In this document: piece by piece, positions 13,301 through 49,437 of the stretch
How the letters are laid out: each line of letters opens with the position of its first letter
Position numbering within the stretch: position 1 is the stretch's first letter
Assembly (NCBI RefSeq): GCF_032062105.1
Contig: NW_026934212.1
Location: 682,001-746,000 of the forward strand
Direction: 5' to 3'
From: Saccostrea cucullata
Taxonomy: Eukaryota
Length of the DNA: 64,000 nucleotides
Notes under the pieces: generated by a model
Database searches by the model: none
What the model saw: the letters and a program-made list of their open reading frames with translations, nothing else
Told to the model about the DNA's origin: nothing
Translations under genes and position numbers: made by a program

Positions 13301-16300
13301 AGATTGAAGAGGGATTTAACAAGGCAAATAGCAAACTCATACAAAAGAAATTTCCAATAATAAATCGTGATCCATATGTTGTTACCCTGTAATCTACAGA
13401 TATAAGGCATACAGCAATATAACACTATAGAGAAAAGGATTTCAAATGTCTGGGTCAGGGGGTTAAAACTGATTTCTGAGACTTTTCATCTTTAATGTAC
13501 AATGCATGTGGTCATCGTAAAAATTTCCCCATATATGAACTGTATAGGACTTAAGGTTTTGAAATACCCATTCTAACTGTTTTTCTAGAAACAAATGGAG
13601 GAAATTAAATAACAATATTTCCATTTGTTTTCTCTGTGATAATTCTTTGAAAGTTAAGTCAGTTGATTTCTTGATTATTCAACCGGAATGTAAATTTTGG
13701 CAAGCAAAAGGTCAGGAGCTAAGAAGGCCTGGTATTAATTTATGCCTTCGCCTGTTAGGCAAATTATCCCACATTTCCAACTATCATTGATGCCCTGGCA
13801 TACCCAGTAATTCCTTAAAATAACCCCATCATATGAGTAAGAATTTTGTATTCAACTTTGTCTGCATATGTTTTTTTAAGGAGAGTCTTGCATTGTATCT
13901 TTAATTACTCAAAATAGATTAGGATGTACATGTACTATTTCAGTGTTTGAAATAACCGTGCACCCAACCGCCCGAGAAGCACAAATTTTGTCATGGGCGA
14001 ACTGATTTGCACATATTGACGCCCGGCTGGACTTGTAAAATTTTCCATAAATTAAAATTCATATACATGTTATGATATATTTGATAAAACTCTCTCAAAT
14101 CAACTTATACATTGTATTACTGGTTACAAGGTGTAACAAGCAAACAGGTTGAATTCACCAGTCATGGATTGAATATATAGTGGGATGGCCCCATTCACAT
14201 TATTGCTAAAACAAACTTATAAAATACAATTATTTTTTTTTTCGGGCTAGTACATTTTTGACAGGGCTGACAACTTTCACTAGCAATCAGCCCTGCATGT
14301 CTAGCTGATTTTACAGTGTGTTTCAAACACTGACTATTTCATAATAAACTAGTTGGGGAGCTACATTTGACTAACACATCAAAAACAAACATAAAAATAC
14401 ACACAATTTTTTTTTAACTTTTGCTATATTGCAAGGAACTTTAATCTACAAACTAGCCATTATCACACTTTTTGAAAATGTCAACAAGAGGTCCATGGGC
14501 CATAGTGCTCACCTGAAAAACGTGTCTCTAATAAACAAAAGTAGCATTCATAGGAACTGTACTTTATATAATTCTAATCAAGATTTACAGTATCTAGTAC
14601 TTCTTGTCATCACTTTTCCCTATAATAGTCTTGATTAAGTGATTCTTGAGAAATATACTTGTACATACCCCTAATGTTCAAGTGAATGGGCTTCTATTTT
14701 TTTAAATTAATATGATCAATGCACATTTCATACACACTTAAATTTTCTGATAGCAATTAAAAGAATTAATTGATGAACTAGATTCTACAAATAAATATTG
14801 CAATCTATAATTAAAATGTGATTATGCAGTGATCTTGATATCAAATTTATATGTGCATGTACCTGAGTGAATATTACATGCCAATACAATTGAGTATGAG
14901 CAGTGCTTTAGTAAGTTTTTATGGACAAAAAGTATTTGTTAATATGCTCTAAAGAAAATGGCATATGTTAGTAAGTCTTATGTAAAACTACAACTGAATG
15001 TATACTTTATTAACGATTTTTTTTTGTTTGTTTTTCTTGCCTACAGAGAAAGAAAGCAATTACTTGTACTTATGAAAACAGCAAAAACATGTGTAAGCGT
15101 AAATTTCTACTACATATATCACTGTGACCTATACAATATCTGCACCTAGCTTTTTACCTCCTCATAAAACTCAATAAATTCATCACAAAAACAAGTGTCA
15201 GCCTGAAATGGTTCACAATTTTTCAATGTTAGAGAAAAATACCTAGAAAAGAAATGAAGTTCTGAATTTAAATTTATTTCCTCTAATGTTTTTTACAACA
15301 ATATTGCAAGTTCTAATTAACTGAATAAATAACTAATATCCTGGGCCATATAAGTAAATGTTCATAGAAAAACACACAGCTGTTTAAACATATTTGCATT
15401 AATAATTTCCATAAGACAAACAATTTCATGCTTATAAAGAGTTATCCCCCTTGTGAAAACTTGAAATCCAAAGTCTGAGTAGTGAGATAAGAATACTTAT
15501 AAGAACACCTATTTAAGGTGGTACGTACCATGTCCATTCTGTCCTGAGCACAGATAATGGGAGGCTCCTTAAACATCTTCTTACTTCCCAGGTTTTCCTG
15601 TCCAAAGTCCCATTCCTCTTTGAGGTATTCATCATTTAGTTTCTTGGCAAGACGGGCATCATAGTGTGAAAGGAGCTGCTCAAAGTCAGCCAGCTATAAA
15701 GTAAAATCATGGAGTGCTACATGTATAAACTAACTGTATAACTTTGTAGATGGAATGGTAGCATGCAATAAGCTTCACAAAGTCAGATGTATGGCTACAA
15801 AAATTATTTTGGATATATGATTTTAGGATAAAATGATTTAGGACACTTTTATGATGAGAAGATATGATAAAGACTGAACAAAAAATAAATCTACACATTA
15901 TTCTGTTTTTCTCGTTTACTTAGTGCTCATCACAGGCCTACAAACATTTTTTCCTTTGTCACTGGGTACAGGGGAATATCAAGACCCTGAACCCTCTTAA
16001 ACATGATAAACATGTACTGTATAAGTAGAATTTTTAGCAAGGATTTAATTTTGGCATTATTAGCGAGGGTGCTGACATCGCTAAAATTGATTATCACTAA
16101 AAATCAATTGCGTATCATTTCTTATAGCTTCTTTAGTTAGCATTTAAAAAATCGCTAAAATTGCGTCTCGCTACAATTAAAACACCAGTTCTTTGGTAGA
16201 AATCGCTAAATTTGCATCTCGCTAAAATTTCCACTTATACGGTATGTATACCATGCTATTGAACCCCTCCCTACCTTATATAGATCTTTGTCCTTCCCCT

Positions 16301-18083: not shown

Positions 18084-21000
18084 CACTATATAATCTATAG
18101 AGCCCCACCCAAGCACTAGAACCCCTGACCCTGGGGCCATGAATTTCACAATTTTGGTAGAGGACTCAATGCTCATTACATTCATGCCAACAGTTTGCCT
18201 GCTTGATGTCCATGAGTAAAGATGAAGATTTTTAAAGATTGCAATAATTTTAGTGGTTTTGGCCCCACCCCTCAGGCCTCAGGGGGGCGGGGACCATGAA
18301 ATTCACAATTTTTGTTCCCCTCCACCCATAGATGCTGTATACCAAATTTGGTTGAAATTGGTTCAGTGGTTTCAGAGAAGAAGCTGAAAATGTTCAAATG
18401 TTAACACATGACACACGACGCACGACACACAACGCACGACACACGACGCACGACGACGGACGAAAACGGATAGCTCTTTAATCATAGTTCAAAATTTAGC
18501 TATCTCAGATTTTATTTTATTCAGACTATAAGAGAGCAAGGGGATAAATGCATGTATTACTATTGAAATATTTTAAAATATTAAACACACAGACTGATGG
18601 ACATAAAAACATTACACGTAATGCTGTTTTAGGAATTGTCCAGAAATGTCATAAAGAGTATATCTCTCTTAAAAAATAACTACATCTATGTATGTAAATA
18701 GTGGGTGGGAATTAATTCTCAAGTAATTTTTGAGATGGCAAAATATCTCTGCTTTGTGTTTATCTTCAAAATTATCGATTTAGAATCCATATTTTCAAGA
18801 GTATATTTCTAATGTTTGCACTCTCTAATCATAGTTCAAAATAGCATCACACCAAAACCTTGAGCTAGGAGGCAACCTCGTTTGGATAACTGAATGCAAG
18901 TTTTATCCAAAAATGGTGTACAAGGATTCCAAATGAACCTTCACATGTTTTAACTTACCACAAGATAAGCTCAAGGTACTCAGATAACTGGATGCGAGTT
19001 TTGTCTTCAAAATGAACCTTCATATGTTTTAATCTGTGCATTAACTTCATAGGAGCAATGGATCGTCCACACATCTAAAAACACAAAGTTATGTCAAATT
19101 TAATATAGCTTGAAAGATGAAAGGTTTTCATATTGTATTAAGTCTGTAGCTATCACACAAGGGAATCTAATGAATACAATATAAGGGCTATAATAGTTTC
19201 TAGTCAAAAATCTTTTACTCTTGAGACCAAAGGTACAATAGGACCTATTGTCAATATGATTTAATTCAATGATACATGTGTCTGAAAATTGAGTAGAATA
19301 TGTGAATGCATGAACTTAATTTGGTTAATGATTTGAACAAACTAAAAATCTTCACATAGACCATACGATGATGCTTGAAATTTTAATCAATTTCATCAAT
19401 TGTAAATAATTTTTTTTTACAGAGTTCCAGTTTAGTTTGTTGTAGAAAAAAAGATTGATTATTGTTTAAAGTATAAAATGAGTAATATTTAAGCAAATTT
19501 TTTGGCAGAAAATAATTTAAACTGTTATAAAAGAAGACTTGATTAAACTTGCAATGAAAATGCAGGTCACTCTATACGCCACTACCAGGAAAGCAAACAT
19601 GCAAAAGACAAGTCTTATATATGTACTGTTTGCAGAAGACATAAAGGTCAACCCCTTCCTTTGTATGATCTTGAAATTCCATAAATCAACAAAAGGTTGG
19701 TGATATCAAATATTAAATATAATCAAAAATGTCTCCTGCATTTGTGAAATTAATTATTTTTTGGTGATAGTAAATTGACAAATGGTCGTTGAGTCCTTGC
19801 AAAGTTTAACAACATTTGACACCATGTTTTCATAGCCATTATGATAGTTGTATTCTTTCTCTCTGAACTCGTTAATTTAACATACCAAATGAATTGATTT
19901 ATACTGGCCTTTCAAATTATAATGATTTATTGCTTATAATAAAATTAAGGGGAGAATAAAGGATTTAAAAATATCCTTCCACATAATGGATACAATAATA
20001 TACCTACTCCATCGCAAACAATTTCTAAAACCAACAAAGAGCACAATGGACGGAAATGGCCGGGTTTTAACTTGGGTAGAAAACAGTATTGAAGATATCA
20101 ATAAAATTTCATGTATTCCTATACCTTTTATGGATTGACAGCTAATTCACTTTTCTAAAATAAACTGGTGGCATTTGTTCATTTTTTTCTCAATAGATAC
20201 AAGTAGATTTTTCTTCTGTTTATATCCCCATACATGAAGATGAGATCACTAATACTTTTGCATTTGTGGTTTCAAATATATAAGATCTTTCCCCTTTTAG
20301 AAATTTAGCTACCAGCATCTATATAAAAAGCTTCAATGCTTTGAGGGCTTAAGTCTAAGTATTAACAATCAAGCTAGTATACACAATGAGATTTTTTCAA
20401 ATTTCAAAGTATATTTCCCCTTTTTAAAACCCAACCTCAAAAAAATGAAAATATTTAACAAAATTAACTAGAACTTACACCCCCTGCTAGTTTTTCCTTA
20501 ATAAAGATATGTATCAAACATAAAAATTTTTCTTCAGTGACCTTATAAGGGGCAAGGTCATGACACACCCTTGGGTCAGCAATCTTTGTGTGAAATGAAC
20601 CCCAAGTTTATCCATAGTATAAAACCAGTGAAAGCTGACCTTAATAAGCCAGGCAATCTTTGTGTGAAAGAAGAACCTACCAAGTTTATCCATAAGAAAG
20701 ATTTCGGACACAAATTATGAAATTTTTCTTCCAGTGACCTTGAACTTCCCCAAATGACCTTTCTATAACCAAACCTGGGCCACAATCTTTGTGTGAAATA
20801 TGATATTTATCCAAAATTAATGAATATGAAATTTTTCTTCCAGTGACCTTGAAATTATATATTGGGTCAAGGTCATGACACACCCTAGGTCAAAATGTGT
20901 TTAATGAAAAATCAGACACGATTAATATATATTTATGACAGACGGACAGACGGAAAAGGTGATGAATTTGAAATTATATATGAAACTGTATTTTCAAGAT

Positions 21001-24000
21001 TGCTTTACCATTAATTTTGTACATTTAAAATATGTTTTGAAAAAGCAGCTTAATACACAGTATAAATTCCTTTATTTCTTGGCTTATTAAGTGACATCCC
21101 TAATTTCTATTTTTGGGGGTTCCTACCACATCAGATCTAACACTGTCCACTTATAATTTGTCTAGAGCTTTATAAGGGCACTAACACTTCTATATTTACA
21201 TTCCTAATACATAAACTTCTTGTTGAAAGCTCAACAAATATTGGTTTGGGATAAAATAAACACCCATAATAAATTCAACAACAATCACTTATAAGATACA
21301 CTGTGTACCCAGTACACTTAGCCCTTTGTGATTTAAGAGAGCACATATTTGTCAGTGTCCAAAAGATTTTTTTTCCGCAGTTTAATTCAATTGAAGCTAA
21401 ATGCCTTTTCTGATTCCACGAGCTAGAGAACCCTGCGATCCTATATATATACTATAGACTGACTTCTCAGTCAAAATAAGAAAATTAAATTACACAAGAG
21501 CATCTTCAGATCAATTATGCCTTTGAGGGTCTTATTAATATTTTCTTTACCCTCCAATTATGACGCACTTTAAAGTCAGATATCAAATTACGAAAAAACC
21601 AATGAAAGAAGCATTTGATCTTAGTGAAGAATACAGCATTTACAAAACTCACGATAGATAATGTAAAGATAATATCAAACTTTTATCTGACAAGTAAAAA
21701 TGGATCATTACCTCTCAAATATCTGGTCATGAAAAAATCGATGTGTCAAAGAATTTTGTTCTCGGTGTACAAATATGTGGAAGAGGATGCACTCACAAAC
21801 TATGAGTAAATTCTTAACAGATATCTTGGTCTGTGCAAATGTATGGAATGATCTCATCTCAAGAGGGTGAATTATAACTGTTTGGACTGTCATAAATTTG
21901 TACCAAAAAAATCTTTAACAAAGAAATGCAAATATCTGCACAGTGATTACATAATATGTATTATAGATATTGAACTACAGAATCTTCTCCAATCTTGTTT
22001 AATTAGTTCTTTGGTGTTAAACTGTCACTCAAACAGTCCATAAATGAAACCAGGCCTGAAATAAATGTACAATTCTATTTGTTTTCTTGCAGAACGTGTG
22101 CCGAGACAATTGTTTAAACAATAATGTGGAAATTCTTGATATCCCATCAAAAAAATATGACAAATTAAAGAAAATACTTTAAAACAAAATGAATACACAC
22201 CAACATGAGAAGCTTACTGAATAGACCAATCAGAATATTATTGAAATCTAAAATAATGGAATTCCAAAATAGTGATTTGACCTTCTCAACAGGGGCAGAC
22301 TAAGAAAACAGACAAATTTAATTAAATCGAGAAAAAATATAAACAGGTGATAAGCTTTGCATAACTGCCATACAAGGGACTTAATCACCATGCACCCTGC
22401 TGTTGGTATGAAGCAGGGACAGGAATTTCTATTAAATATCGCAGGTGACCATATCAATAACACACATGCATTTTCTGCTTGTCTTACAATCTCTTTTACA
22501 TACAAATTTCAAGTACCCCAGCCAGAAATATAAGAATTAACATGAATACGAGATTACGCTTTCTTAAACAATCATTTGCATTTGCATAGCAAGTTAATAC
22601 AAGGCTGATAACGGAAGAAAAGGGAAAAAAGTGAAAAATCAATCTTTTGAATTTACTTTAAGATTTTTTGACTTCAAACATTTCATTTACCAAAGACTTA
22701 ATGAAAATCCTCAATACCTGCAATAGATTTAACAGTTCAGAAGACATTTTTATACATAAACAGAAAGACACCAAAGCCATATTTTTATCAATATTAAAAT
22801 GAAATCCTACAGCATTGTACAAGGATTAAGAACTTATTGACATTTTTCTGTTTGAAGTTATTGAATGCTCAGATAATTGAAATGATTCTTTTGACAATTT
22901 ATCAACAAAGTTTGATTCTAAGGATGAAGGCAAAGATTAAAAACTAAAGACCATATTTTCATTGTAGAGATACAAACCCCATAGAAACATTTAAACAAAG
23001 TAAAGAAAAACTTAATTCATGTCAGTTTTCCTTTTAGAGAATAATGTATTAATTCTGAGCAATGCACTATGTTGTCAAGCAATTAATTCATAAAAAATGA
23101 TGATTGTCACAGTTAATCAATACAAAGATTCAGCTTTTTCAATATTTGGAATATTTTATTTCTTTGGTACTGATTTATATTGGATAAAGTCTGAAAGTAA
23201 ATAATTTATTTTATTGTTTTTGTTCTACCACAAACAACTACAATATAGAGCTGCTGCTGCAATTACAAACCTTTTAATAAAGTCATTGGATCAGTGTTAG
23301 ATTCCTACTGGTCTACCTTACTAGTAGGATCTAATAAGTAGCTTCTAAGTAGAACTGAGAAGGATCTAACCAGAACTTAGCACTAGGATCTAGCCAAACC
23401 TTAGTAGGATCTAACCAGACCTTAGTAGGATCTAACCAGACCTTAGTAGGATCTAACCAGACCTTAGTAGGATCTAACCAGACCTTAGTAGGATCTAACC
23501 AGACCTTAGTAGGATCTAACCAGACCTTAGTAGGATCTAACCAGACCTTAGTAGGATCTAACTAGACCTTAGTAGGATCTAACCAGACCTTAGTAGGATC
23601 TAACCAGACCTTAGTAGGATCTAACCAGACCTTAGCAGGATCTAACCAGATCTTTGTAGGATATAACCAGACCATAGTAGGATCTAAACAGATCTTTGTA
23701 GGATCTAACAAGAACTGAGTAGGATCTAAGCAGACATTAGAAGGGTTTAACCAGACATTAGTAAGATCTAAGCAGACCTTAGTAAGATATAAGCAGACCT
23801 AAGTAGGATCTAACCAAAACTGAGTAGTATCTAAGCAGACCTAAGTAAGATCTAAGTAGAACTGAGTAGGATTTAAGTAGACCTTAGCAGGATCTCAGCA
23901 AAACTGAGTAGGATCTAACCAGATGTTAGTAGGATCTAACCAGACCTTAGTAGGATTTAAGCAGACCTTAGTAGGATCTTACCAGACCTTTGTAGGATTT

Positions 24001-27000
24001 AAGCAGAACTGAGTAGGATCTGAGCAGACCTTAGTAAGATCTAATCATAACCTACCTTGATACTACTGAGTAGGATCTCTTGGTCAATCAAAAGTCCCTT
24101 CATGTCAAACTGTTCAAAGGCCTGGTATGCCACTCTGATGTTATAGAGCTAACCAGAACTAAACAGTATATACACTGTATACAAAAGTACAATTACTTGT
24201 GAAAATGGACATTTGGATAACATACAACAGTTATACACAAAAAGTATAGATCATTAAAGAAACACAACTTATCATGATATAGTCTTTTTAGCTTAGTTTA
24301 CTCAGTTACAATTATTGCAATTTTTCTATTTCAGTTTTGAAATGTGTGTAGAGACTGTATTCTTTATTAAACAGTGATCTGATGAAAAAATGGAACACCA
24401 GACAAAAATCAAACTAAGGGATCATCCATAGATAGAATCTAAGACACTATACATAAAATAAACCAACTGAAAAGATTAATGAAAAAGTCAAAACTCTCAT
24501 CTATAGATGACAATGTCATTTAATTTAAAGCCCTTTTTCCATGAAATCATAATATTTGTCTAGATCATGAAATTTCTTGTAAATTAAGACTTATGGCACC
24601 TACTTAGTATGTTTAATAAGGGAGTAAAGTAATTAAAGCCCTGTTAATATTTGTCTTGTTCATAAGATACATTGTAAAATAATCCTCTTTGACATCAACT
24701 CAGTTTATATACTAAAGGTGTGAAGTGTTAGATTGAAGACTTATTGGTGACTTAGCACACTTCAAATATGAGTTGGGTAAACTTCAGGTCATTTCATGCA
24801 ATAAAATCAATGCAGATTAACTCTGAGCTAAGATAACCCGGATTCACTACTACATGTAGTGTACTAAGTAATGTTGCAGTAAGAATTAATTGCAGTGGAT
24901 TCAATATTTCAGGCGACAAGACCATAAACTGAGAATCCTAAATGATGGCTATATACATCATCACTTCATCAAAATGTCATATGGTGCATACAATATTATG
25001 CTAATTCACAAGAAAAGTTGTATATCCGGGGTTTTTTTTGAGTGTTGGAAATTTTGCAAAAAGGGGGTAAATTTTTACAGTTTTTATTTTGTGTAATTGA
25101 TTTTTTTTTTTAAAAATGGTAGTGTGTTTATGTCACAGTATAGCTGACATAATTTCTGCCTGTTTTATATTTTGCAAATAAAAAATGATCACAGAAAAAG
25201 TGAAAAATAGATCATTGCGAAAAAAACAAACGAATATACAGTAAGACAATTAATCAAGGACATAAAATATTGTACATCTAGACATTTTATAATTTATCTA
25301 ATAGCAGACATGGACAGTAACCATACTAAAGATGACTTTGCATACTTAGATACATGTAGCAGAATGACTGAGAAAGTACAGACACTTACACTGACGATAA
25401 AATAACTTAAAAAGTTCAGTCACCTAATTTGATGGCTGAATGACTGAGGAAGTGATGGCCCAGACACTTTTAAAAGTGATGGCTGAAGGACTAAGAAAGT
25501 GATTGTCAAGACACAACATGATGGGTGAATACCTGAAAAATACAGACATTTACCTGATGGATGAATATCTGAAAAAAAGAGAGACACTTACGTGATGGCT
25601 GAATGACTCAGGAAGTACAGACTTTTCCTGACCACATTCATGTTCCAGTCTCCGGAGTGGAGATTACAGGTTCTGTGGAGTGCCCTCTCCAGCAGGCGAT
25701 GGTCCACCATCTTGTAGGACTCCTAAAAATAAATAACATGGGTAATTAAAGATTAGAAAGCTCAACAATATTAACTAATATATGTAAGGTTAGGTCTCAT
25801 AGTGTGTTATCCTTAAAGCTTTTGATCCAGGTAACACTGAATGGACCTGTTCCAAAACGCCAACTGTTCAGTTTAAAAGAGAAATACACTCCTGATTCAG
25901 GTACAAAATCTGAAGCCGGCCTGTTAGCTACTGTACATGGTTAAATGCAACATCTGTGTAAGTAATGTTTAGGTAAGGCTAACAGTTCCTTGGAAACTTG
26001 CTCCAAAATAAATCTGTTTAATTCAGTAGAAAATTTAAATCAGACATAGCATATAAGCATGGTTGGTAGTGTGTACCCCTAAATTGTCAACTTCCAACAA
26101 GTTAGGTCAGGCAAGGCCATTAAATTCATGATAATGGATCTGCTCCAAAAACTTTCACCTGTTCAATCACCTGTAAAATATCTAATTGGTAAAATCCATG
26201 CAGCATCCATGCAAGTTTGGTCAGAGTAGATCATAAAGTTACATGGAAATGGACCTCCTCCAAAAAGAAAGGTTCAGTCAGATAGACTACATATGAATAT
26301 CAAATATTCTACACTTTGTCTAGGTGATGGACATCTGAATTCTTGGCTTCTGTCTTATAATGTTTCTGCTTTATGTTTTTACAGCATTACCTTGAGACTT
26401 AGGCCATGTTCTTCAATGACCAACTCCGACCCGTTGACATTCTTCTTAAACAGGTCAACTGGGTACTGCAAGACAATAAAAACATTGTTACAAGGAATTT
26501 CAGAATAAATATAACATTGTTAAGAAAACAACATATCTGTCCTTACTATATGAATTATGTACATGTATACATTATACAACTACAAGTATTAGATATTGTT
26601 ACACGACTAGAAATTCAGTGGAGAATTAATTCTCAAGAGGGTGTTCTATCTGATGGATATCCGAGTTTCACTAAAATTTCATTATATTAAAATAAAGAGG
26701 AATGATGAATTTTATAAATCCTTTAAAAAAAGGAATCTGTAAGCAGGGCAGAAAAATGGGCCCATGGCAACATCAGAGAGGGGCCAGATGCCAAGGAGAA
26801 TAAAGCATCCCTTGTTGATAAGTCACACCTTACAGGAGCCAATTGAAATTGACAATATTTTTTTTCAAAAATAGATTTAAAAAAAATAAACTTAATGAAA
26901 AATCTTTAAACAACAGGACATTTATAATTATCTTTCCTATTTTCAAAAGTGCAACTTTACACAATTTAACAGTTGAAGGTCACTTCTGCACATTGCATTG

Positions 27001-40100: not shown

Positions 40101-43100
40101 GAAGGGCCTTCTCTGGCATCTAATAACATAAAGACACAAAAGTACAGGAAAGGAAAAAATAATGCTAATTGCTATAATGCATTTGAAATGTTGTTTTTGT
40201 GCATACGAAAACATGCACAATGAAAATTCAGCATTTAAAAAAAAACCATCTGGTTGTACACAACCTTACTGTCTTTCAACATTCTCAACTTATTTAAAAA
40301 GTAGACTGATCAGGATCAAAAAACTACTGAAGCACAATATTTTTATTTCTAAAAAATTCTCACCCTTCCATCAGTGACTTTCCTCTGCATGGAGTCGTAG
40401 TCCAGCAGTTTATCAAACCTCTTCTGTATCACTTTGTTTGGGGCCTCAAACAGGGATGTCAGTCTGTTCAAAGGGGAGGTAACCAGGTCACGAACTGTCT
40501 CTTGCTAAAATTATCAAACATTAATACATTTTAGTATTTATTCTAATTTATCAGGTCATCAAAATTGAAATCTGACTGAAATATACAAAATTTTAGCACT
40601 TTTTTTTTATTGACCATTGTTGGTTTGTTTTTTTTTTTTACAACAAGACAGCAGAGTAAAACCTCTACATACAAATGTGGGTAGATGCTTCCTATCCAGA
40701 TTTTCCTGGGCCTCCTGGTATTTCTCCATTTCTGCGTTACTCTGTCGATCATCATAAAAATCGGCCAGGTCGGCCACCACACACTCATGGCAAGACACTG
40801 ACTCCTACATAAACAAAAAATATACCAGTCAACTCAATTGATATGGAATTAAGAGATTTGATGTTTTATTATACTGTTTATACATGTTTGTGCCTGTTTT
40901 TTTTAGATAACAAAAAAATTAATAAAATGAGCTTGGTACCTGTAAATGGTCCATGTATATCTGTGTGTTTCTTATAAAGACTTTCACCATTTTCTCCATT
41001 TGTCTGAACTTTGCCTCCTCTCTATCAAAGTCCTCATCCTTGATCTGCCAAAAATACACAAAATTAAGCTTCCCATACAATCACATCTTTAGACATTTTT
41101 CTTATTTCTACAAAACATTCATACAAACAATGCCTCAGTTATAAAACTTGTGCACAGCTACATACACCTACCAGCAGAAGTCCCAGATTGGTACTAATTC
41201 GACCTTTGAACCTGCTGCCTTTTTTCTTTATTGTATGGAAGCTCAATTTGGCAAGTTTGTCTCCAAAAGTCTCATCTGAAACTTTCTTATATTTGAACAC
41301 TGTAAAACACAAAATCATAATTTTAAGTTTCATTTCCCGCTGACATTGTATCAAATACATGTATAAATGTACAAATTACAATAGAAAATGAATATCTGAT
41401 TGTCTGACCTAGATCCTTTCTGCGTTTGTATTCATTGATGGCTGATGCTACATCTGTCATGGCATTGATGGCTGTCAGAATTTCTTTTTTGTCTGGGTGA
41501 TCATCCTCTGTTGCCTGTAAGTCAATAATAAAATGAAAACATCAATAGAATATCAAACTCTGATCAAAAACAAGTAAGGTACTAAGGAAACCAGACAGAC
41601 CTCAACATATACATGTACTAGCATATACTGTTTTGAATAAACTTTGTACTTATTAAATGTAGCTACCAGCATGTTCAAAATTTAGCACATATTGTACATC
41701 ATAATTTTACCAACACAAACATGACTTACAACTGTTGGTATTTTGTTTAATTATCACACATAAGTCAATAAATATTTTTTAAAGATCATGCATTTTACTA
41801 ACTAAATCATCAAGAAAGGGGTTCAATAAAAATTTCTCTAAAATCAGTATTGAGTATGGTAGGAGAATGAATCTTATTAAGTTTGTAGGTGACCTTGAAG
41901 AGTTCGTTGAGCAGCAGTGGGTATTTGAGGATCCTCTGGACTGGCTTAATGAGGAGAGCCCCGAGATCAAACACCACAGTCTTCTGTCGGAGTTTGTCCA
42001 GCATCTTATTGATGTACACCATGATGGACTCACTCTCCTCATACTGGAATTATACATGGCATGAATTAGTGCAAACGGTTAGCAATTTTACATGTAGGAA
42101 ATCACATTTAAAGTAACTGACACTAAGCATCATCCAAAACTGATTGGCATATAAAACATCAAATACTGTCAGTAAAACATGCTTACAGTGAACACACATA
42201 ACTTATAAAGTATTTGGAAATCCCAACATTTTGCTTTAAGCATGGCTTACTGTTTCAATCTAGGTTAAATGAGCTACATTTGACCTGTTTATTTACCTTT
42301 TCAAGCAGTGTGATGACTTCATCATGGTTACGGCAGTATGGAGCAAAGGCAGTTTTCATGTCTTCTGATAGCACCACAAAACATACACCTACAAGAATGT
42401 CAAATATGTGAAAAATGAATAAATACAATCAATGGATTTTGAATCAAAGAGTCCTTACAGATAAATCATAAGTATGCATTTTCAGGTCAATATATATGTA
42501 CAGCAGCTGGCTATATGCCTTATAATGCTTTGCTACACTGTAAATCTATTTACCTATGACTTGTTCCTCGAAGTCCTTCCCCTGTACGGCCCCCTCCAGG
42601 GCACTCAGTAATCTCTGTGATATGTCTGCTACGTCCTCAATGTTCCCCATCAACACGGTCAGATCCACCTCAGGATGCTGGCAAATTTCAAATGAGACAG
42701 TGTAAATATATCTACATGTCATATCTAGTTGCATATTAAAAATATTAACTTCTTATAGATACTATTCACCATGTAAACTTTACCTTTCAGCCATGAGAGA
42801 TGCTTACATTAATGATCCTGAACAAGCCCTCCCTCACCCCTTAATGAAATTTTTTTACGTCTTCCTGAACAACTCATTATCCCACTCTAAATAATTTCCT
42901 TGAGGAGCTTTCAGTTACCCTCTTCTTCTTACCTTTTCTGCCCCAGAAGACAGGAATGTCTCTACACACAGACCCAGACTGTGCTGGAAATCCTTCTACC
43001 TACCTTTTCTGCCCCGGGAGACAGGAAGGTCTCTATACAGAGACCCAGACTGTGCTGGAAGTCCTTCTCTGTCTGGATCAGTTCCTCTATCACCTTCCCC

Positions 43101-46100
43101 CTCTTCTCTCTCCTCTTCTCCTTCATCTCCTCGGTCCTCTTCTTCTCCTCCTCTCGCTGTCTCTCCTCCTCCTCCTGCCTCCTCCTCTCTGCCTCTCTCT
43201 GAGCCTCCAAATCCCCCTCCTCAGGGCACAGCACCACCAGGTTCTCTGTCAAAATCATGAGTAAATCTCTTATCGTTACTACAAGATTTTAAAAAATGTT
43301 TTCTACATTGTACTTTTTAAGTGTGGTGAGTTTTCCAACAATTGACACTAAGAGTTAAGCATTTCAAAGCTTGAAAATTCATTTTTAGTTCCTCGCGCTA
43401 TTAATTGAGAAGGGTTTATACTCACTCCTGAGTTCGCTCAACTCAGCATTAAGACCACTAATGTTGTCTGTGTAAAACTCAATGTTTTCTTTTATTTCTT
43501 CATTATCTTCACTTCCTTGTAGTGTTCTTTCTAGCTCAGTCCTGGATTTCTCACAGTTCTAAAAGAGAGTTCAATAATTGTCAAATACCTATTTCACAAC
43601 AAAATATCTTCTATCAATTTACATATAAAGCACTGCTACTCACGTCAACGTCCATTTCTAGGTCTTTGATCTTTTTTCTGAGGTCAGCCACAGCCACAGA
43701 ATGAGCCTCAGCTAAAATAAAAAATAAACACTCAACTTATAAAAATGAGGCTTGAATTTTCATTTCAATCTTAATTTTAGAGTAACAAGAATTTTGATTT
43801 TCACAGCAGGCAGATTCTTTAACAAGAGGCCTGGCCCCACATTCTCCCAGACAATATGTTTTGAATCTGAATCTACAATACCTCAGAGAGCTTTCTCTCA
43901 TGTTTCATCTTTTCTGATTCAGTGGTTGTTGAGTAAAAACTTTTCAAAATTTACTATTTTTTTTAATTACCTCCCTTGCAAGAGGACGAGGCCTTTCAAT
44001 TTAATAAAAATGAATTCCTTTTACCCAAGGATTCATGCTGATTCAACAACAAAATATACAAATGCATTCTAAAGAGTTTCTAACAGTACAGGACTTAATT
44101 TTGGTAATGATCACTTCACACTTTCATTTCACTTAAATTTCATTTGCTCTGGTTATCATCAACTGATCAATATTCAATATTTAACTAATTCCCAAACGTA
44201 TGCTAATTGCTTGGTATGTATATTTGTGCCAGAAAATTAAATTGGGAAAAAAATATAAATACACGCATAAAATATTTTAAAAACAATCCTGATTGATTAT
44301 TGAGGAAAACCCTTTAAAAAACAAAAACAAAAAAATTAAAATTTCATGAATAACCAAAAAACATACAGAACCAAAGAGGAAACTTGTGAAATTACAGAGA
44401 TAACATACTGCAATAAAACAGACAAGAGACAGCCAAACCTGTAGACTAATCTTCCTTGTTGTCTATACCAATAATAAAATTACATCTGAACTGACAAAAT
44501 TCCACAAGTTCTCCCAAATGTTAACATCGACCTTCACTAAATGTTCTTACCATATACCGGTAGTAACTTTTGATTCAAAAGATTTAATGCACATGTATAA
44601 TGAAGGTTAAATATTTTTCCACCGACCTTCACTAAATTTTCAATCCATAGTAACTTTTTTTAAAAATGGTTGGAAAGATTTAACTCACATGTATAATGAA
44701 GGTATCATATTAAAAAAAGGTAATTTAACATACTTCTAAATATTCTTATCACCATGCTCTCACTTCACAAGGTATTTTAAAACCTGCACTGTACATATAT
44801 ACAATAAAATGTTACATCATGATCTTTACCACACTGGCCTGATTTCTGATTGAAAACATCCACATAAAGTTACACTGTTGTTCCTAAATCTCAACCAAGT
44901 CTGTGGTGATTTCTTACTGACCAATTCAGTCAGCTTATCATTATTTATAACAGGGTACTGACAATTTATATCTCTAAGCAATATGCTGCACATCTTCCAG
45001 GTAGATAACTTTTGGGGTTTGTCAGTGATCACAAACAGCAAACATGTGAGACATTTGGGGGATCTAGACTTTGATATTGTGAATCATTTTTAATTTTTAA
45101 CTTTGTTGCTTTTCCATAATGGAACTCAATACTGCAAATTTTTCTTTGTGTAAAGGGGCACCAAAATAACAGACCATACCAAATCAAATATTGTTTAAAA
45201 TTTCATCGGAATTTGAAATTTTAAAATATGTCATCAAATCTACTTTATTTCATATCCCAATGACACTCTAAAAATGATACTCTACTTCAAAATTATCGAG
45301 GTTCTTTCAATGTTTATCACTATACAACAATACTGCATATCTTCAATTCAAAGTAGATACATGTAGCTCATTACCCGTTTGAATTTGATAGGGGGACCAC
45401 TTCAAACAAGCTAGTGTCCATATACTTTATGACAGCTAAACCAAGAATTTAACTCATGCCCGTATCTGACATTTTGAAATTGTTCTACCCAGGATACATG
45501 TAAAATAAGTTTGTTGGCAAAGATATAAATCAAGGCATATTTATTTATAAAATATTTACAACTTTACATGTTTGTGCAAAATCTTTTATTTGAACTTGGA
45601 TTTTCAGTCAGTATAACTGGAGGTCTTTTAAGGTATGCATTTGTTTCATCTTGTAGCAAATATGTTCTTTTGCAAAAAAATAACAATCTTCATGATTTTA
45701 TCAATCAAGGTGTTTTACCATATAAGTGGAAATTCTAGCGAGACACAAATTTAGTGGTTTCTACCTAAAATCTGGTATTTTATTTTTACCGAGAAGTAAT
45801 TTTAACGATTTTAAAATGCTAACTGTAAAAACTTTTACAAATAAAACGCAATTAATTTTTAGCAATATTCAATTTTAGCGATGTAAGCACCCTCGCTGAT
45901 AATGCCAAAATTAAATCCTCGCTAAAATTTTTACTTATATGGTAGATATCCTGGTAGCAAAACAACTCCACTAAAATGAGGAACTTTCATTCATTGTAAC
46001 ACAAAAAAAAACTGACCTTGTATATTTCCCAATATTCAATGAAAAGGGTGTAGATACCTAACTGTGATTACAGTATCTACCTTTATTTACCTGATAAAAG

Positions 46101-49100
46101 TCCTTACCTTTAAATGTATCCTCCAGATCAATAAGTCCCTCCCCAGGTCCCGGCTGAGCTGGTCCTGTGGATGATGGCTGTGGTCTTGTTGGCGCAGGGC
46201 GGGTTGGCATGGGTCGGGTTGGTGCGGGTCGAGAGGGAACGGGACAGGAAGGGGCGGGTCTGGATGGCCTTGTCCTGGGTGTCTGACCATTCTGTTTCAC
46301 ATGATTAGTATCGGTCACTTTTACGGGAATTAAAGGAACAGTCGGAGGTGCAGAGGCCAGTCGGGGGCCGGTAGGGCGGGGTGGGGGGTCTTTTTTGAGG
46401 GAGGGTGAACGATCAAACTGCTCAAATGACCTTTGTGGAATGGGAGGAGGTTTTCTCATGGAGGGGTAACTTTTTTTGGATGGAACTGGGTCCACAAAGA
46501 AGACTGAATTTCCTGTTGAAAATGTACCATGGAAGTCATCATTGGAAATTATTTTTTGATGTGCCGTGTCTTGAATTGGAAAATTTACAGAGTGTCTCTT
46601 TGGATCTGTTTTAATTAAATTTGAAGAACTAGAGGATTTGTTACTGGCTTGATCTCTTTTTAGTATTGGCTTGCCTGGGTGAGCTGGCTTATTGCCCATT
46701 TTCTCTTTGGCATCATCAGGTTTCACATCATTTTTTGCTTTGGTTAATTCACTTGATATTAAGTCATTTAATGATTTTGATGTATCTACATCACCAAAAG
46801 AAAATGTAGCTCTCCTGTTTTCAGTTTTGGTATCTGATACTGAACTAGACAATTCATTTGTGGACAGAGATTTTTGCAATGTGCTGCTAGATTCATCAGG
46901 GCTGTGAAGAACTTGGGCAGATGAAGACTTGAGAAGTGACGCCTCGCTGTCTTCGGTTTCTTTTACGGGATGTAATCTCGTTTTGTTTGGTAGATTGGGT
47001 TTGGGCGATAGGCTTGGTTTGGGTTTTGTTACAGGTTTAGGGTTCAGCTGAGGTTTAACTGGTAATACTGGCTTTTGCTCCAATGTAAAATTTATGCTTT
47101 GGCTCCCACTTTTCTCTTTAATATTACTTTTATGTATGTTTTGTTGAGATGTTTCAGGAGCTACATTGTGTTCTCTATGTTCTGTGGTATGATCACTTAT
47201 CGATAAACTTGGTTTTATGACTGGAACAGATGATATTTTGTCATCTATCGTTTTTTTCACTTTATCACTAGATGGTGTAACATGAAATTGGGTTTCAACA
47301 CTCAGTTCCTCTTTATCACTAACAATTTCACTACTTCCACCTTTAACTTCATGATTTCTGTAATCTGGAGCAGGAGACTGTAATGGACTATCATCAATAA
47401 TGTCAAGGAAAACCGTGGGAACTAATCCCGATTTCCCAGAATTCTCATTTAATGCCCTCACCCATTCGGTGTTCAGATACTCTAAAATCTTAACGGTGTC
47501 CCCTTCCGTCACAGTAAGGTCCTGGTCAGTTTCTGCAGTGAACGAAAACAAAACAAGTGCATACTGGTCCCTGCTCAAATTTTGTTCAACTCCATTAACA
47601 CAGCCATGAGATTTGTTCAATGTTTCCTCCACTGTTGAAAAATTCTGATTCTCATTTATATCTAGATCTTTATTTTTCACCTCTTGGTCAATTTCTGATG
47701 GTTCTTCATGATAACTCCTTGTCCCTTCTTCCTCAGAAGCATTTATCTCTGTTCTATTTATTGCCTCATTTTCAGAGAAAGCGTAAGGACAATCGACAAT
47801 AATGGACACAAAACATGTGGGGAACAGACCTATCCTCCCGTCAATCTCTCCCTCCATCCACTGGTCGTCCACATGTTGGACAAGGTACACAATCTCATTG
47901 GCATCAAAAGAAAGTTCATTGTCCGACTGACCTTCAAACCTGTACAAGGTCATGGCATATGGACTAACAGAGGAGTCCAGACTCTTCAAGTTCTCGCTGG
48001 TGTAGGCAGCACTTTGATCTGGTATAGTTAACTGTGATTGGCTATTTGGCACATCGTGTGATTCTGATTGGCTGACATCTCCTCCAACAGGCTGTCCATC
48101 ACTAACACTGCTATAATAAGACTGATCCAAAGAGAAGGATTTCTGAATGGAGGAGCTGGATTTTTTAGTGACCTGATGAGAGACTGGCCCCCCTCCCCCT
48201 GGTGCTGTGTCCTGTATCAGCTCCACACAGGAGGAAAGGAACATCCCCTTCTTACTTCCCAGCTCCCCATAATACCAATCTGAGTCTAGGATCTCAGTCA
48301 CAGTAATTATATCACCAGTCTTAAACCCCAGCTCCTCATCGAGCTGAGCCACCGAATCACACAGGGCCAGGGCAAACAGGGGCTCCGTCGAGTGGAGACT
48401 GTGGCTCCGTTCTTTTAGGGAGGGCAGTAGTTCCAGCTCCATGACATGGGTGACTGGAAAAATCCCCTTGCTGGACCCCAGCTGACCTTTCCACCAGTTG
48501 GCATCAATCTGGTGAGTTCCCAAGATAATAGCACCTACAAAGGGATTACAATGAATAGATATACATGATATTGAGGTATTCTCTGACAAAGGAATGCAAA
48601 ATGAACTCATCTTGCCATTTTGAGTAACCAAATTAATAAAAACACTTATGGTTTTCAGAATCCCTTTTCGTTCAAAACAAGTTACTATACTGTATACAGG
48701 GTTATTTTCGCCCCGTTTTATTTTTGCCCATTCACACCTAGAAAGTAGAAAGTATTTTCCCCTGTTTCAAATTCGCCCAATTTCAATTCTTTTTAAGAAA
48801 TCATACCGAGTTTCTTACAATCACCCCGTTTTATTTTCGCCTTCCTTTGAGTAGGGCGTATGGGGCGAAAATAAAACGGGGGCGAAAATTTTCCTGTATA
48901 CAGCAATGAAATTATATTTAATAATATCAGAACTGTCCCTAACAATCAAAATAGCATGGGACATTTAAAAAGTAGAAGGGGTTCTTAGGTTCCTCAATTA
49001 AGAGGGTAATGAGGAAGAAAAACAGAGTAATCGGGGGATAATGTTATTAAAAGTGGGGAAATGCCCTGACTCCCAAAATCTTAGGAACAACCTGACATAC

Positions 49101-49437
49101 ATATAGATTAAAATTACAAAAATATATAAACACTTAAGTTACACATTTATTTTTCACCTTTTCTAAATTCCAGATCACCATCTTGCTGAGCAGGGAAGTT
49201 TTCTACAGCACCAAACAATACCTGCCCCTCTTCTACTGCTGGTAAACTAAGGACCTCCACAAAGCTGGAGGGGAAGTTCCCCTCCCTCCCCCTTAACTGT
49301 CCGCAGTACCAGTTATCATCTATCACGCTGGTCACTCTAATGATGTCACCCTTAGACAGACTTATCTCCCTTGGATGGTTGGTTTCAAATGGATAAACAG
49401 CTCTAACATATTGACCTGACAAGTTTTCTACGCCCAT
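36969..49437 (-). CDS. DNMBP: Dynamin-binding protein / Tuba (SH3 repeats, RhoGEF DH, BAR, two C-terminal SH3)
   Basis: Exons 49437-49158, 48534-46108, 43711-43644, 43558-43426, 43245-43004, 42677-42554, 42388-42297, 42043-41894, 41514-41409, 41299-41172 (or -41166), 41044-40940, 40804-40673, 40504-40364, 40119-39934, [39422-39369], 38868-38701, 38407-38206, 38005-37629, 37148-36969 all splice in frame. DH motifs VIEELIQTEKDF and LLIKPVQRILKYPLLL; INEYKRRKDL; BAR IQKRFDKLLDYD and LNAQLLDELP; terminal SH3. Confidence 0.95.
37629..38005 (-). CDS. DNMBP: DNMBP exon, Ser-rich linker
   Basis: KGFIPSRLL..., phase 1->0. Confidence 0.88.
38206..38407 (-). CDS. DNMBP: DNMBP exon, penultimate SH3
   Basis: LYRVLQNY...KDPMGNKDRWFVDSG. 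Confidence 0.9.
39369..39422 (-). CDS. DNMBP: Candidate 54-nt in-frame cassette exon of DNMBP
   Basis: tttacag|AAA GTC...TCT ACT|gtaagt; KVTQHEIETKSQSPNIST; phase 0-0. Confidence 0.6.
39934..40119 (-). CDS. DNMBP: DNMBP exon, BAR domain
   Basis: DYDGLNAQLLDELPKL. Confidence 0.9.
41894..42043 (-). CDS. DNMBP: DNMBP exon, DH CR3
   Basis: DLGALLIKPVQRILKYPLLLNELFK. Confidence 0.92.
43004..43245 (-). CDS. DNMBP: DNMBP exon, coiled coil and DH start
   Basis: KRGKVIEELIQTEKDFQHSLGLC. Confidence 0.9.
43820..44045 (-). mobile_element. Fragment of a pearl-like element
   Basis: AACAAGAGGCC start and core-repeat remnant. Confidence 0.5.
45718..45942. mobile_element. MITE, inverted copy of the 16017-16242 family
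   Basis: TA|CCATATAAGTGGAAATT...ACTTATATGG|TA. Confidence 0.85.
46108..48534 (-). CDS. DNMBP: DNMBP large exon (SH3-2 to SH3-5, Pro-rich linker)
   Basis: 2427 nt, phase 1->1, within the 857-aa ORF. Confidence 0.92.
48690..48903. mobile_element. MITE (CTGTATACAGG...TTTTCGCCCCG TIRs)
   Basis: Long terminal inverted repeats; TA on the left, CA on the right. Confidence 0.8.
49158..49437 (-). CDS. DNMBP: DNMBP exon, SH3-1 and start of SH3-2
   Basis: tttcag|ATG GGC; YVRAVYPF...WYCG...GNFPSSFV. Confidence 0.9.

What the first reader, a model, noticed from the sequence alone, without database searches (positions are those of the whole stretch)
18880..43067. Recurring pattern: exon 3' ends copied into the downstream intron, often with the donor site
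Seen at four independent exons in two genes. (a) 42933-42996 copies the DNMBP exon end 43004-43067 and its donor. (b) 25359-25591 holds ~5 copies of the last ~31 nt of exon 25592-25722 plus ACTTAC. (c) The 21-bp array 23320-24045 is built from motifs of exon 24056-24158. (d) 18885-18953 copies two segments of exon 18959-19074. All lie on the donor side. Inference: a biased tandem-duplication process at exon/5'-splice-site junctions that seeds intronic minisatellites and decoy donors, or selection that tolerates only this polarity (the first donor keeps the frame).
Basis: partly seen in the sequence, partly recalled or inferred. Interest (0 to 1): 0.7.

Follow-up and report, generated by a model that had tools for sequence, protein, structure and literature searches.

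The report
Oyster splice-junction repeats favour donors
In an oyster, short pieces spanning an exon's edge are often copied in tandem into the neighbouring intron, about twice as often at exon ends as at exon starts; this is a repeat type already known from lancelets and humans, and it is likely harmless because splicing would keep using the site next to the intact exon.

Summary
All four copies are real and beyond chance (p 2e-4 or smaller). They are exon-boundary tandem duplications, the 'mirages' of lancelets and the human F7 VNTR. The scan noted donor arrays of this kind before, in other genomes and twice elsewhere in this one.

I ran the polarity test on about 1,230 further exon junctions of this genome: 39 donor-side against 18 acceptor-side events (p=0.0075; donor share 0.55-0.80). 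Donor-spanning arrays exceed the intronic background (16 against 6.2 expected, p=4e-4); acceptor-spanning ones match it (7 against 6.2). So a roughly 2:1 donor bias is supported, but 'only this polarity' is refuted. The window's 4:0 is unremarkable (p=0.22), and three of the four exons are consecutive in one gene.

Unexpected: exon c begins with a 9-mer equal to the array consensus, giving an in-frame stop where another oyster reads F-E-E. This is either overwriting by the array or an assembly error. No RNA data were available.

The parts
36975..49437 (-). DNMBP/Tuba-like gene (SH3 x5, RhoGEF, BAR)
   Evidence: tblastn with XP_062618724.1 (P0003), 93-100% per exon; Pfam; the 3' exons beyond 40364 are from ORFs and my gene model only
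43004..43245 (-). DNMBP exon a (start of RhoGEF domain); authentic donor at 43003
42933..43003 (-). (a) second unit of a 71-bp tandem duplication: 6 nt intron + copy of the exon's last 65 nt, followed by a decoy donor at 42932; read-through to it meets a stop
   Evidence: one unit only in the second genomic copy C11422
7699..29919 (-). Uncharacterised bivalve gene, 13 coding exons including a 22-nt microexon at 29186-29207; no Pfam family above cut-off
   Evidence: homologs P0001, P0002
25592..25722 (-). exon b (exon 4 of gene 2)
   Evidence: same boundaries in another oyster
25359..25591 (-). (b) degenerate fragments of exon b's end, about 38-bp period near the donor, decoy GT at 25553, 25532, 25389
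24056..24158 (-). exon c (exon 5 of gene 2)
24149..24157 (-). 9-mer at the start of exon c identical to the array consensus; holds an in-frame TAG (24149-24151) where homologs read F-E-E
23361..24044 (-). (c) 21-bp minisatellite, 32.4 units, each with a degenerate donor-like site (score 5.9 vs 7.6 for the real donor)
18959..19074 (-). exon d (exon 6 of gene 2)
18885..18953 (-). (d) copy of exon d positions 18983-19032 starting 5 nt after the donor, split by a 19-nt insert; no donor copy

Best explanation
These are tandem duplications of 30-100 bases that straddle an exon-intron boundary ('mirages'), likely made by microhomology-guided slippage or unequal exchange, sometimes amplified into minisatellites, and likely neutral because splicing would keep using the site next to the intact exon. 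Shown: the copies, their tandem geometry, a single-unit state in a second genomic copy for (a), their occurrence at about 3% of donors and 1.5% of acceptors in the sample, and a roughly 2:1 donor excess. Inferred: exon edges seed such repeats at a raised rate at both ends, and acceptor-side ones are removed more often, because a donor duplication leaves the first donor and the whole exon untouched, whereas an acceptor duplication puts a competing AG upstream and must carry its own branch point and pyrimidine tract.
For: Tandem geometry with an AGAAG microhomology at the breakpoints of (a), and one unit in contig C11422. No copies after exons b, c, d in another oyster's contigs (scores 14-20 vs 28-46 here; only 98 nt of intron held after d). 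Same anatomy at 57 further sites: dynein 17:8 (796 junctions), myosin 13:9 (314 junctions before removing array-made pseudo-exons), ab initio exons 9:1 (151/152 sites); pooled 39:18, p=0.0075, heterogeneity p=0.22. Reverse-complement controls gave 0-2 hits per test, at chance level. Donor events exceed acceptor events in 13 genes and the reverse in 3 (p=0.021). Several donor units carry only 1-10 intronic bases (9 of 30 at most 10 nt). First-donor use is shown experimentally for human F7 (PMC1557585), and normal splicing is reported for lancelet mirages (PMC3087553, PMC3902484).
Against: Acceptor-spanning arrays are at background, not below it (7 vs 6.2), so purging is not directly shown. 8 of 16 acceptor copies keep AG at a frameshifting distance (unit lengths there are sometimes multiples of the true unit). 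The predicted shorter intronic part in donor units is only a trend (median 20.5 vs 27 nt, Mann-Whitney p=0.25). The two homology-guided sets alone give 30:17, p=0.079, and myosins alone 13:9, p=0.52. Events were classified by my eye, not blind. Exon c carries an in-frame stop, so gene 2 may not be under the selection that the argument needs.
Confidence: 0.55

Rival explanations
1. Donor sites are true mutational hot spots for tandem duplication and expansion (for example through transcription pausing, R-loops or U1-linked events at exon ends); acceptor-side events merely arise at the background rate and selection plays little part.
For: Donor-spanning arrays 16 vs 6.2 expected while acceptor-spanning ones equal background (7 vs 6.2); arrays of 3.5 or more copies: 12 donor, 3 acceptor, 7 intron-interior (12:3 p=0.035). 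Acceptor copies show no clear loss of AG.
Against: The exonic unit is conserved, so boundary duplications stay detectable longer than interior ones, which inflates both classes; the background in gene-poor DNA is higher (0.0078 per site) and cuts the donor enrichment to 1.9-fold. No molecular evidence for such a process here; the mechanisms named are from recall.
Confidence: 0.27
2. There is no real polarity; the excess comes from detection, gene-model and curation bias in a modest, gene-clustered sample.
For: Events cluster by gene (p=1.5e-4; one dynein has 4 donor and 4 acceptor events). Homology-guided sets alone p=0.079; automated TRF-only count 16:7, p=0.093. The most skewed set (9:1) rests on ab initio exons.
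Against: All three sets lean the same way; gene-level sign test p=0.021; the exon-only alignment test is symmetric in design and its reverse-complement controls are at chance.
Confidence: 0.13
3. The decoy donors are functional regulators that send part of the transcript to nonsense-mediated decay or give alternative isoforms.
For: 22 of 30 donor copies in the sample keep GT and 16 score within 1 of the real site; the decoy of (a) is as strong as the real donor and read-through meets a stop.
Against: (a) is absent from the second genomic copy; b-d are absent in another oyster; copies decay at every stage; (d) has no donor. Retained GT is expected of young copies.
Confidence: 0.05

Closest known systems
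Lancelet 'mirage' minisatellites (Adh3; globins BflGb6, BflGb9; troponin C; PGBD5). Seen: passages of PMC3087553 and one passage of PMC3902484; the primary Adh3 paper PMC117041 was not held and not seen
   Same: Tandem units spanning an exon-intron boundary, at either end of the exon, often keeping AG/GT, unit 10-160 bp, copy number differing between haplotypes, several in one genome
   Different: Those reports are single-gene descriptions with no genome-scale count or polarity test in the passages seen; here about 3% of donors and 1.5% of acceptors, 2:1. Splicing was checked by RT-PCR there, not here
Human F7 intron 7 37-bp VNTR. Seen: abstract, outline and Discussion of PMC1557585
   Same: First unit holds the exon end and donor; downstream pseudo-donors identical or similar; only the most upstream is used
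   Different: One locus, tested by minigenes; the oyster cases are more numerous, often degenerate, and include acceptor-side arrays
Intron gain by tandem duplication of AGGT-containing coding sequence (ATP2A1). Seen: passages of PMC3265369
   Same: Short intragenic tandem duplication that duplicates splice signals
   Different: That creates a new intron inside an exon; here the introns are older than the copies (same positions in another oyster) and no new intron is made

Membership tests
Mirage / boundary-spanning minisatellite | Tandem repeat whose unit spans an exon-intron boundary | tested here: met
   (a) 65+6 nt unit; (b) 38-nt period; (c) unit with exon-end motif and degenerate donor; (d) tandem copy beginning 5 nt after the donor but lacking the boundary copy
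Mirage / boundary-spanning minisatellite | Copies often retain splice signals | tested here: met
   Decoy donors in a, b, c, none in d; sample: 22 of 30 keep GT, 11 of 16 keep AG
Mirage / boundary-spanning minisatellite | Both 5' and 3' boundaries can be duplicated | tested here: met
   39 donor-side and 18 acceptor-side events elsewhere in the genome
Mirage / boundary-spanning minisatellite | Copy number varies between haplotypes | tested here: inconclusive
   (a) two units here, one in C11422, but that contig's status as allele rather than paralog is inferred; no second copy of exon c in the assembly
Mirage / boundary-spanning minisatellite | Normal splicing at the authentic site | not testable with these tools
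   No RNA run listed; the RefSeq protein of the second DNMBP copy uses the corresponding donor, but that copy has no duplication
Intron gain by tandem duplication | A new intron absent from orthologs | tested here: not met
   Introns after b, c, d at the same positions in another oyster; intron after a present in C11422
Mutually exclusive duplicated exons | Whole exon copied with its own acceptor and donor, open frame | tested here: not met
   Only exon ends are copied; read-through of a and b meets stops

The most novel reading that the evidence does not exclude
Splice donors are genome-wide hot spots for minisatellite birth in oysters (about 3% of donors, two to three times background), and such arrays can write back into their parent exon: the 21-bp array has overwritten the start of exon c with its own consensus and knocked out a conserved bivalve gene.
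Probability: 0.2. Interest if true: 0.65.

Novelty: new member of a known kind. Interest (0 to 1): 0.36.

Why it matters
The repeat type is known, but I found no count of its frequency or polarity in seven literature searches of an incomplete library. A rate of a few percent of junctions gives hundreds to thousands of natural competitions between identical splice sites in one genome, a ready test of first-come versus exon-definition rules at both exon ends. It also matters for annotation: these arrays made my gene model call false exons in at least six genes. If the stop in exon c is real, it would be a case of an intronic minisatellite damaging its source exon.

Tried and rejected
RNA evidence: no RNA holder listed for 18500-26600, so no reads were laid. 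A second copy of exon c in the assembly: none. A 10-nt microexon encoding F-E-E between exons b and c: none found, and another oyster has these bases at the start of exon c. In-frame rescues through the decoy donor at 25389 (a 1-nt or 16-nt piece) exist on paper but have weak support. First ab initio pass on 701 kb: too few exons, script failed; redone with other filters. Unconstrained retraining of the gene model drifted and was dropped. Rows dropped before counting: dynein set, 9 alignment hits not anchored at a boundary or inside a satellite (5 donor, 4 acceptor) and 1 whole-exon duplicate; myosin set, 2 whole-exon duplicates, 4 unanchored acceptor hits, 1 low-score TRF row; contig C9098 as an allele; array-made pseudo-exons merged into one event each. 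Without seven borderline events the two homology sets give 26:15, p=0.12. Event rate does not track GC3 (rho 0.12, p=0.55). Allele comparison of other arrays was uninformative: C4583 begins inside the shared 39-bp array and the C19197 site was not located in C9098. Pfam gave no family for gene 2. The weak acceptor-side hit near 15764-15786 was not counted.

Full report
Setting. The window is G000:C16349:682001-746000 of a 1.17-Gb assembly. The nearest named protein is a dynamin-binding protein labelled Saccostrea cucullata, from a 38,048-base contig, the length of contig C11422 of this assembly; the organism is therefore most likely this rock oyster. Two minus-strand genes are involved: DNMBP (SH3, RhoGEF, BAR) and an uncharacterised bivalve gene of 13 coding exons. 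Exons b, c and d are consecutive exons of the second gene.

Observation. I aligned each exon end to the adjacent intron for all 29 introns modelled in the two genes, with unrelated exons as null. The four donor-side copies are significant (p about 0, 6.8e-8, 2.0e-4, 2.9e-6); one weak acceptor-side hit (p=1.0e-3) does not extend into the acceptor. (a) is a clean 71-bp tandem unit with an AGAAG microhomology at its ends and a second donor as strong as the first; contig C11422 has one unit. (b) is a set of degenerate fragments, not five full copies. (c) is a 21-bp array of 32 units sharing a 14-mer with the exon's 3' part and carrying a weakened donor-like site. (d) copies two adjacent exon segments without the donor. 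Another oyster, seen in metagenome contigs, has the same intron positions and no copies (only 98 nt held after exon d).

Polarity test. I located dynein heavy chain and myosin genes in the genome, fetched them, and modelled exons with a profile from 36 long dynein proteins or from the paralogs themselves. For dyneins 589 of 796 junctions were validated by gapless alignment to two or more homologs; for myosins 162 of 320. Exon-only alignment and Tandem Repeats Finder were applied to both intron ends, and hits were classified by eye. Dyneins gave 17 donor and 8 acceptor events, myosins 13 and 9, and 152 ab initio exons in other fetched DNA, not checked by homology, 9 and 1. Pooled 39:18, p=0.0075, donor share 0.55-0.80; the two homology-guided sets alone 30:17, p=0.079. 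Reverse-complement controls stayed at chance. By gene, donor events lead in 13 and acceptor events in 3 of 29 genes (p=0.021). Events cluster by gene (p=1.5e-4). The window's 4 of 29 donors is above the sample rate (p=0.008, but chosen after the fact), and 4:0 has probability 0.22 at the pooled share.

Background. Among 75 arrays of period 20-130 in 1,080 curated introns, 16 span a donor, 7 an acceptor and 52 are interior; random placement expects 6.2, 6.2 and 62.6 (p=4e-4 for donors, 0.43 for acceptors). Against 400 kb of gene-poor DNA the donor rate is 1.9-fold and the acceptor rate 0.8-fold. Arrays of 3.5 or more copies are 12 donor, 3 acceptor, 7 interior. A caveat: the exonic unit is conserved, which keeps boundary duplications detectable longer.

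Mechanism. Shown: tandem geometry, frequent retention of the splice signal (22 of 30 GT, 11 of 16 AG), both polarities, a 2:1 excess. Inferred: microhomology-guided duplication, later amplification, and use of the site next to the intact exon, as shown for human F7 (PMC1557585, abstract and Discussion) and reported for lancelet mirages (PMC3087553 and PMC3902484, passages). The excess may come from weaker tolerance of acceptor duplications, but the test of that idea was not significant (intronic part 20.5 vs 27 nt, p=0.25), and acceptor events are not below background, so a donor-specific mutational bias remains a serious rival.

Exon c anomaly. Joined to exon b, exon c reads S-G-stop where homologs read F-E-E. 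The acceptor is at the orthologous place. Five of the first 10 bases differ from the other oyster, against 16 of the remaining 93, where only one residue changes. The 9-mer occurs 14 times in the array and nowhere else in the window on either strand. Overwriting by the array, an assembly error, or a bypassing splice are all open; a dynein exon beside an acceptor array in C12694 also looks broken, which fits either real damage or assembly trouble at such arrays.

Comparison and novelty. This is the 'mirage' class; the lancelet paper says both boundaries are duplicated. Earlier notes of this scan gave me that name and paper and report donor arrays in other genomes and at two other places in this one; a look-up for a polarity count returned nothing. 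Seven literature searches found no such count; the library lacks most subscription papers, the primary Adh3 paper was not seen, and no supplements were read. Verdict: real, known in kind, with a new and moderately supported measurement of a partial donor bias.

Noticed in passing
window 24149-24158: In-frame TAG at the start of exon c, in a 9-mer equal to the downstream array's consensus; homologs read F-E-E. Gene 2 may be a null allele or mis-assembled here.
   Followed up: partly
window 42993 against G000:C11422:8706: Similarity to the second DNMBP copy drops from about 95% to about 78-90% at the donor of exon a, a mosaic that hints at exchange between divergent haplotypes at exon edges.
   Followed up: partly
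window 29186-29207: 22-nt microexon (CLARALG) in gene 2, matching the homolog P0001.
   Followed up: yes
window 15764-15786: Weak copy of the start of the exon at 15693 in the upstream intron (p=1e-3); possibly an old acceptor-side remnant.
   Followed up: partly
G000:C14187 near 270,000-274,000 (L193); G000:C1566 138,001-141,000 (L197): Giant donor-seeded arrays in myosin genes: 91 bp x at least 47 and 21 bp x at least 136, both running past the fetched stretch.
   Followed up: partly
G000:C12694 (L096-L101): One dynein gene with 4 donor and 4 acceptor duplications; a 66-bp acceptor array with an internal donor-like site; the last unit of an 89-bp acceptor array appears frameshifted. A 70 bp x 61 acceptor array lies upstream.
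   Followed up: partly
G000:C9535 (exon 47 region), C1173, C18402: Diverged whole-exon duplicates in a dynein and two myosin heavy chain genes, candidates for mutually exclusive exons.
   Followed up: no
window 10587-11112, 33750-34411, 56567-59176, 59966-62296: Dispersed satellites of 141-168 bp and a 437-bp array; the 141-168-bp units recur in other contigs and look transposon-borne.
   Followed up: no
window 2614-3229: AT-rich 28/56-bp tandem array outside the two genes.
   Followed up: no
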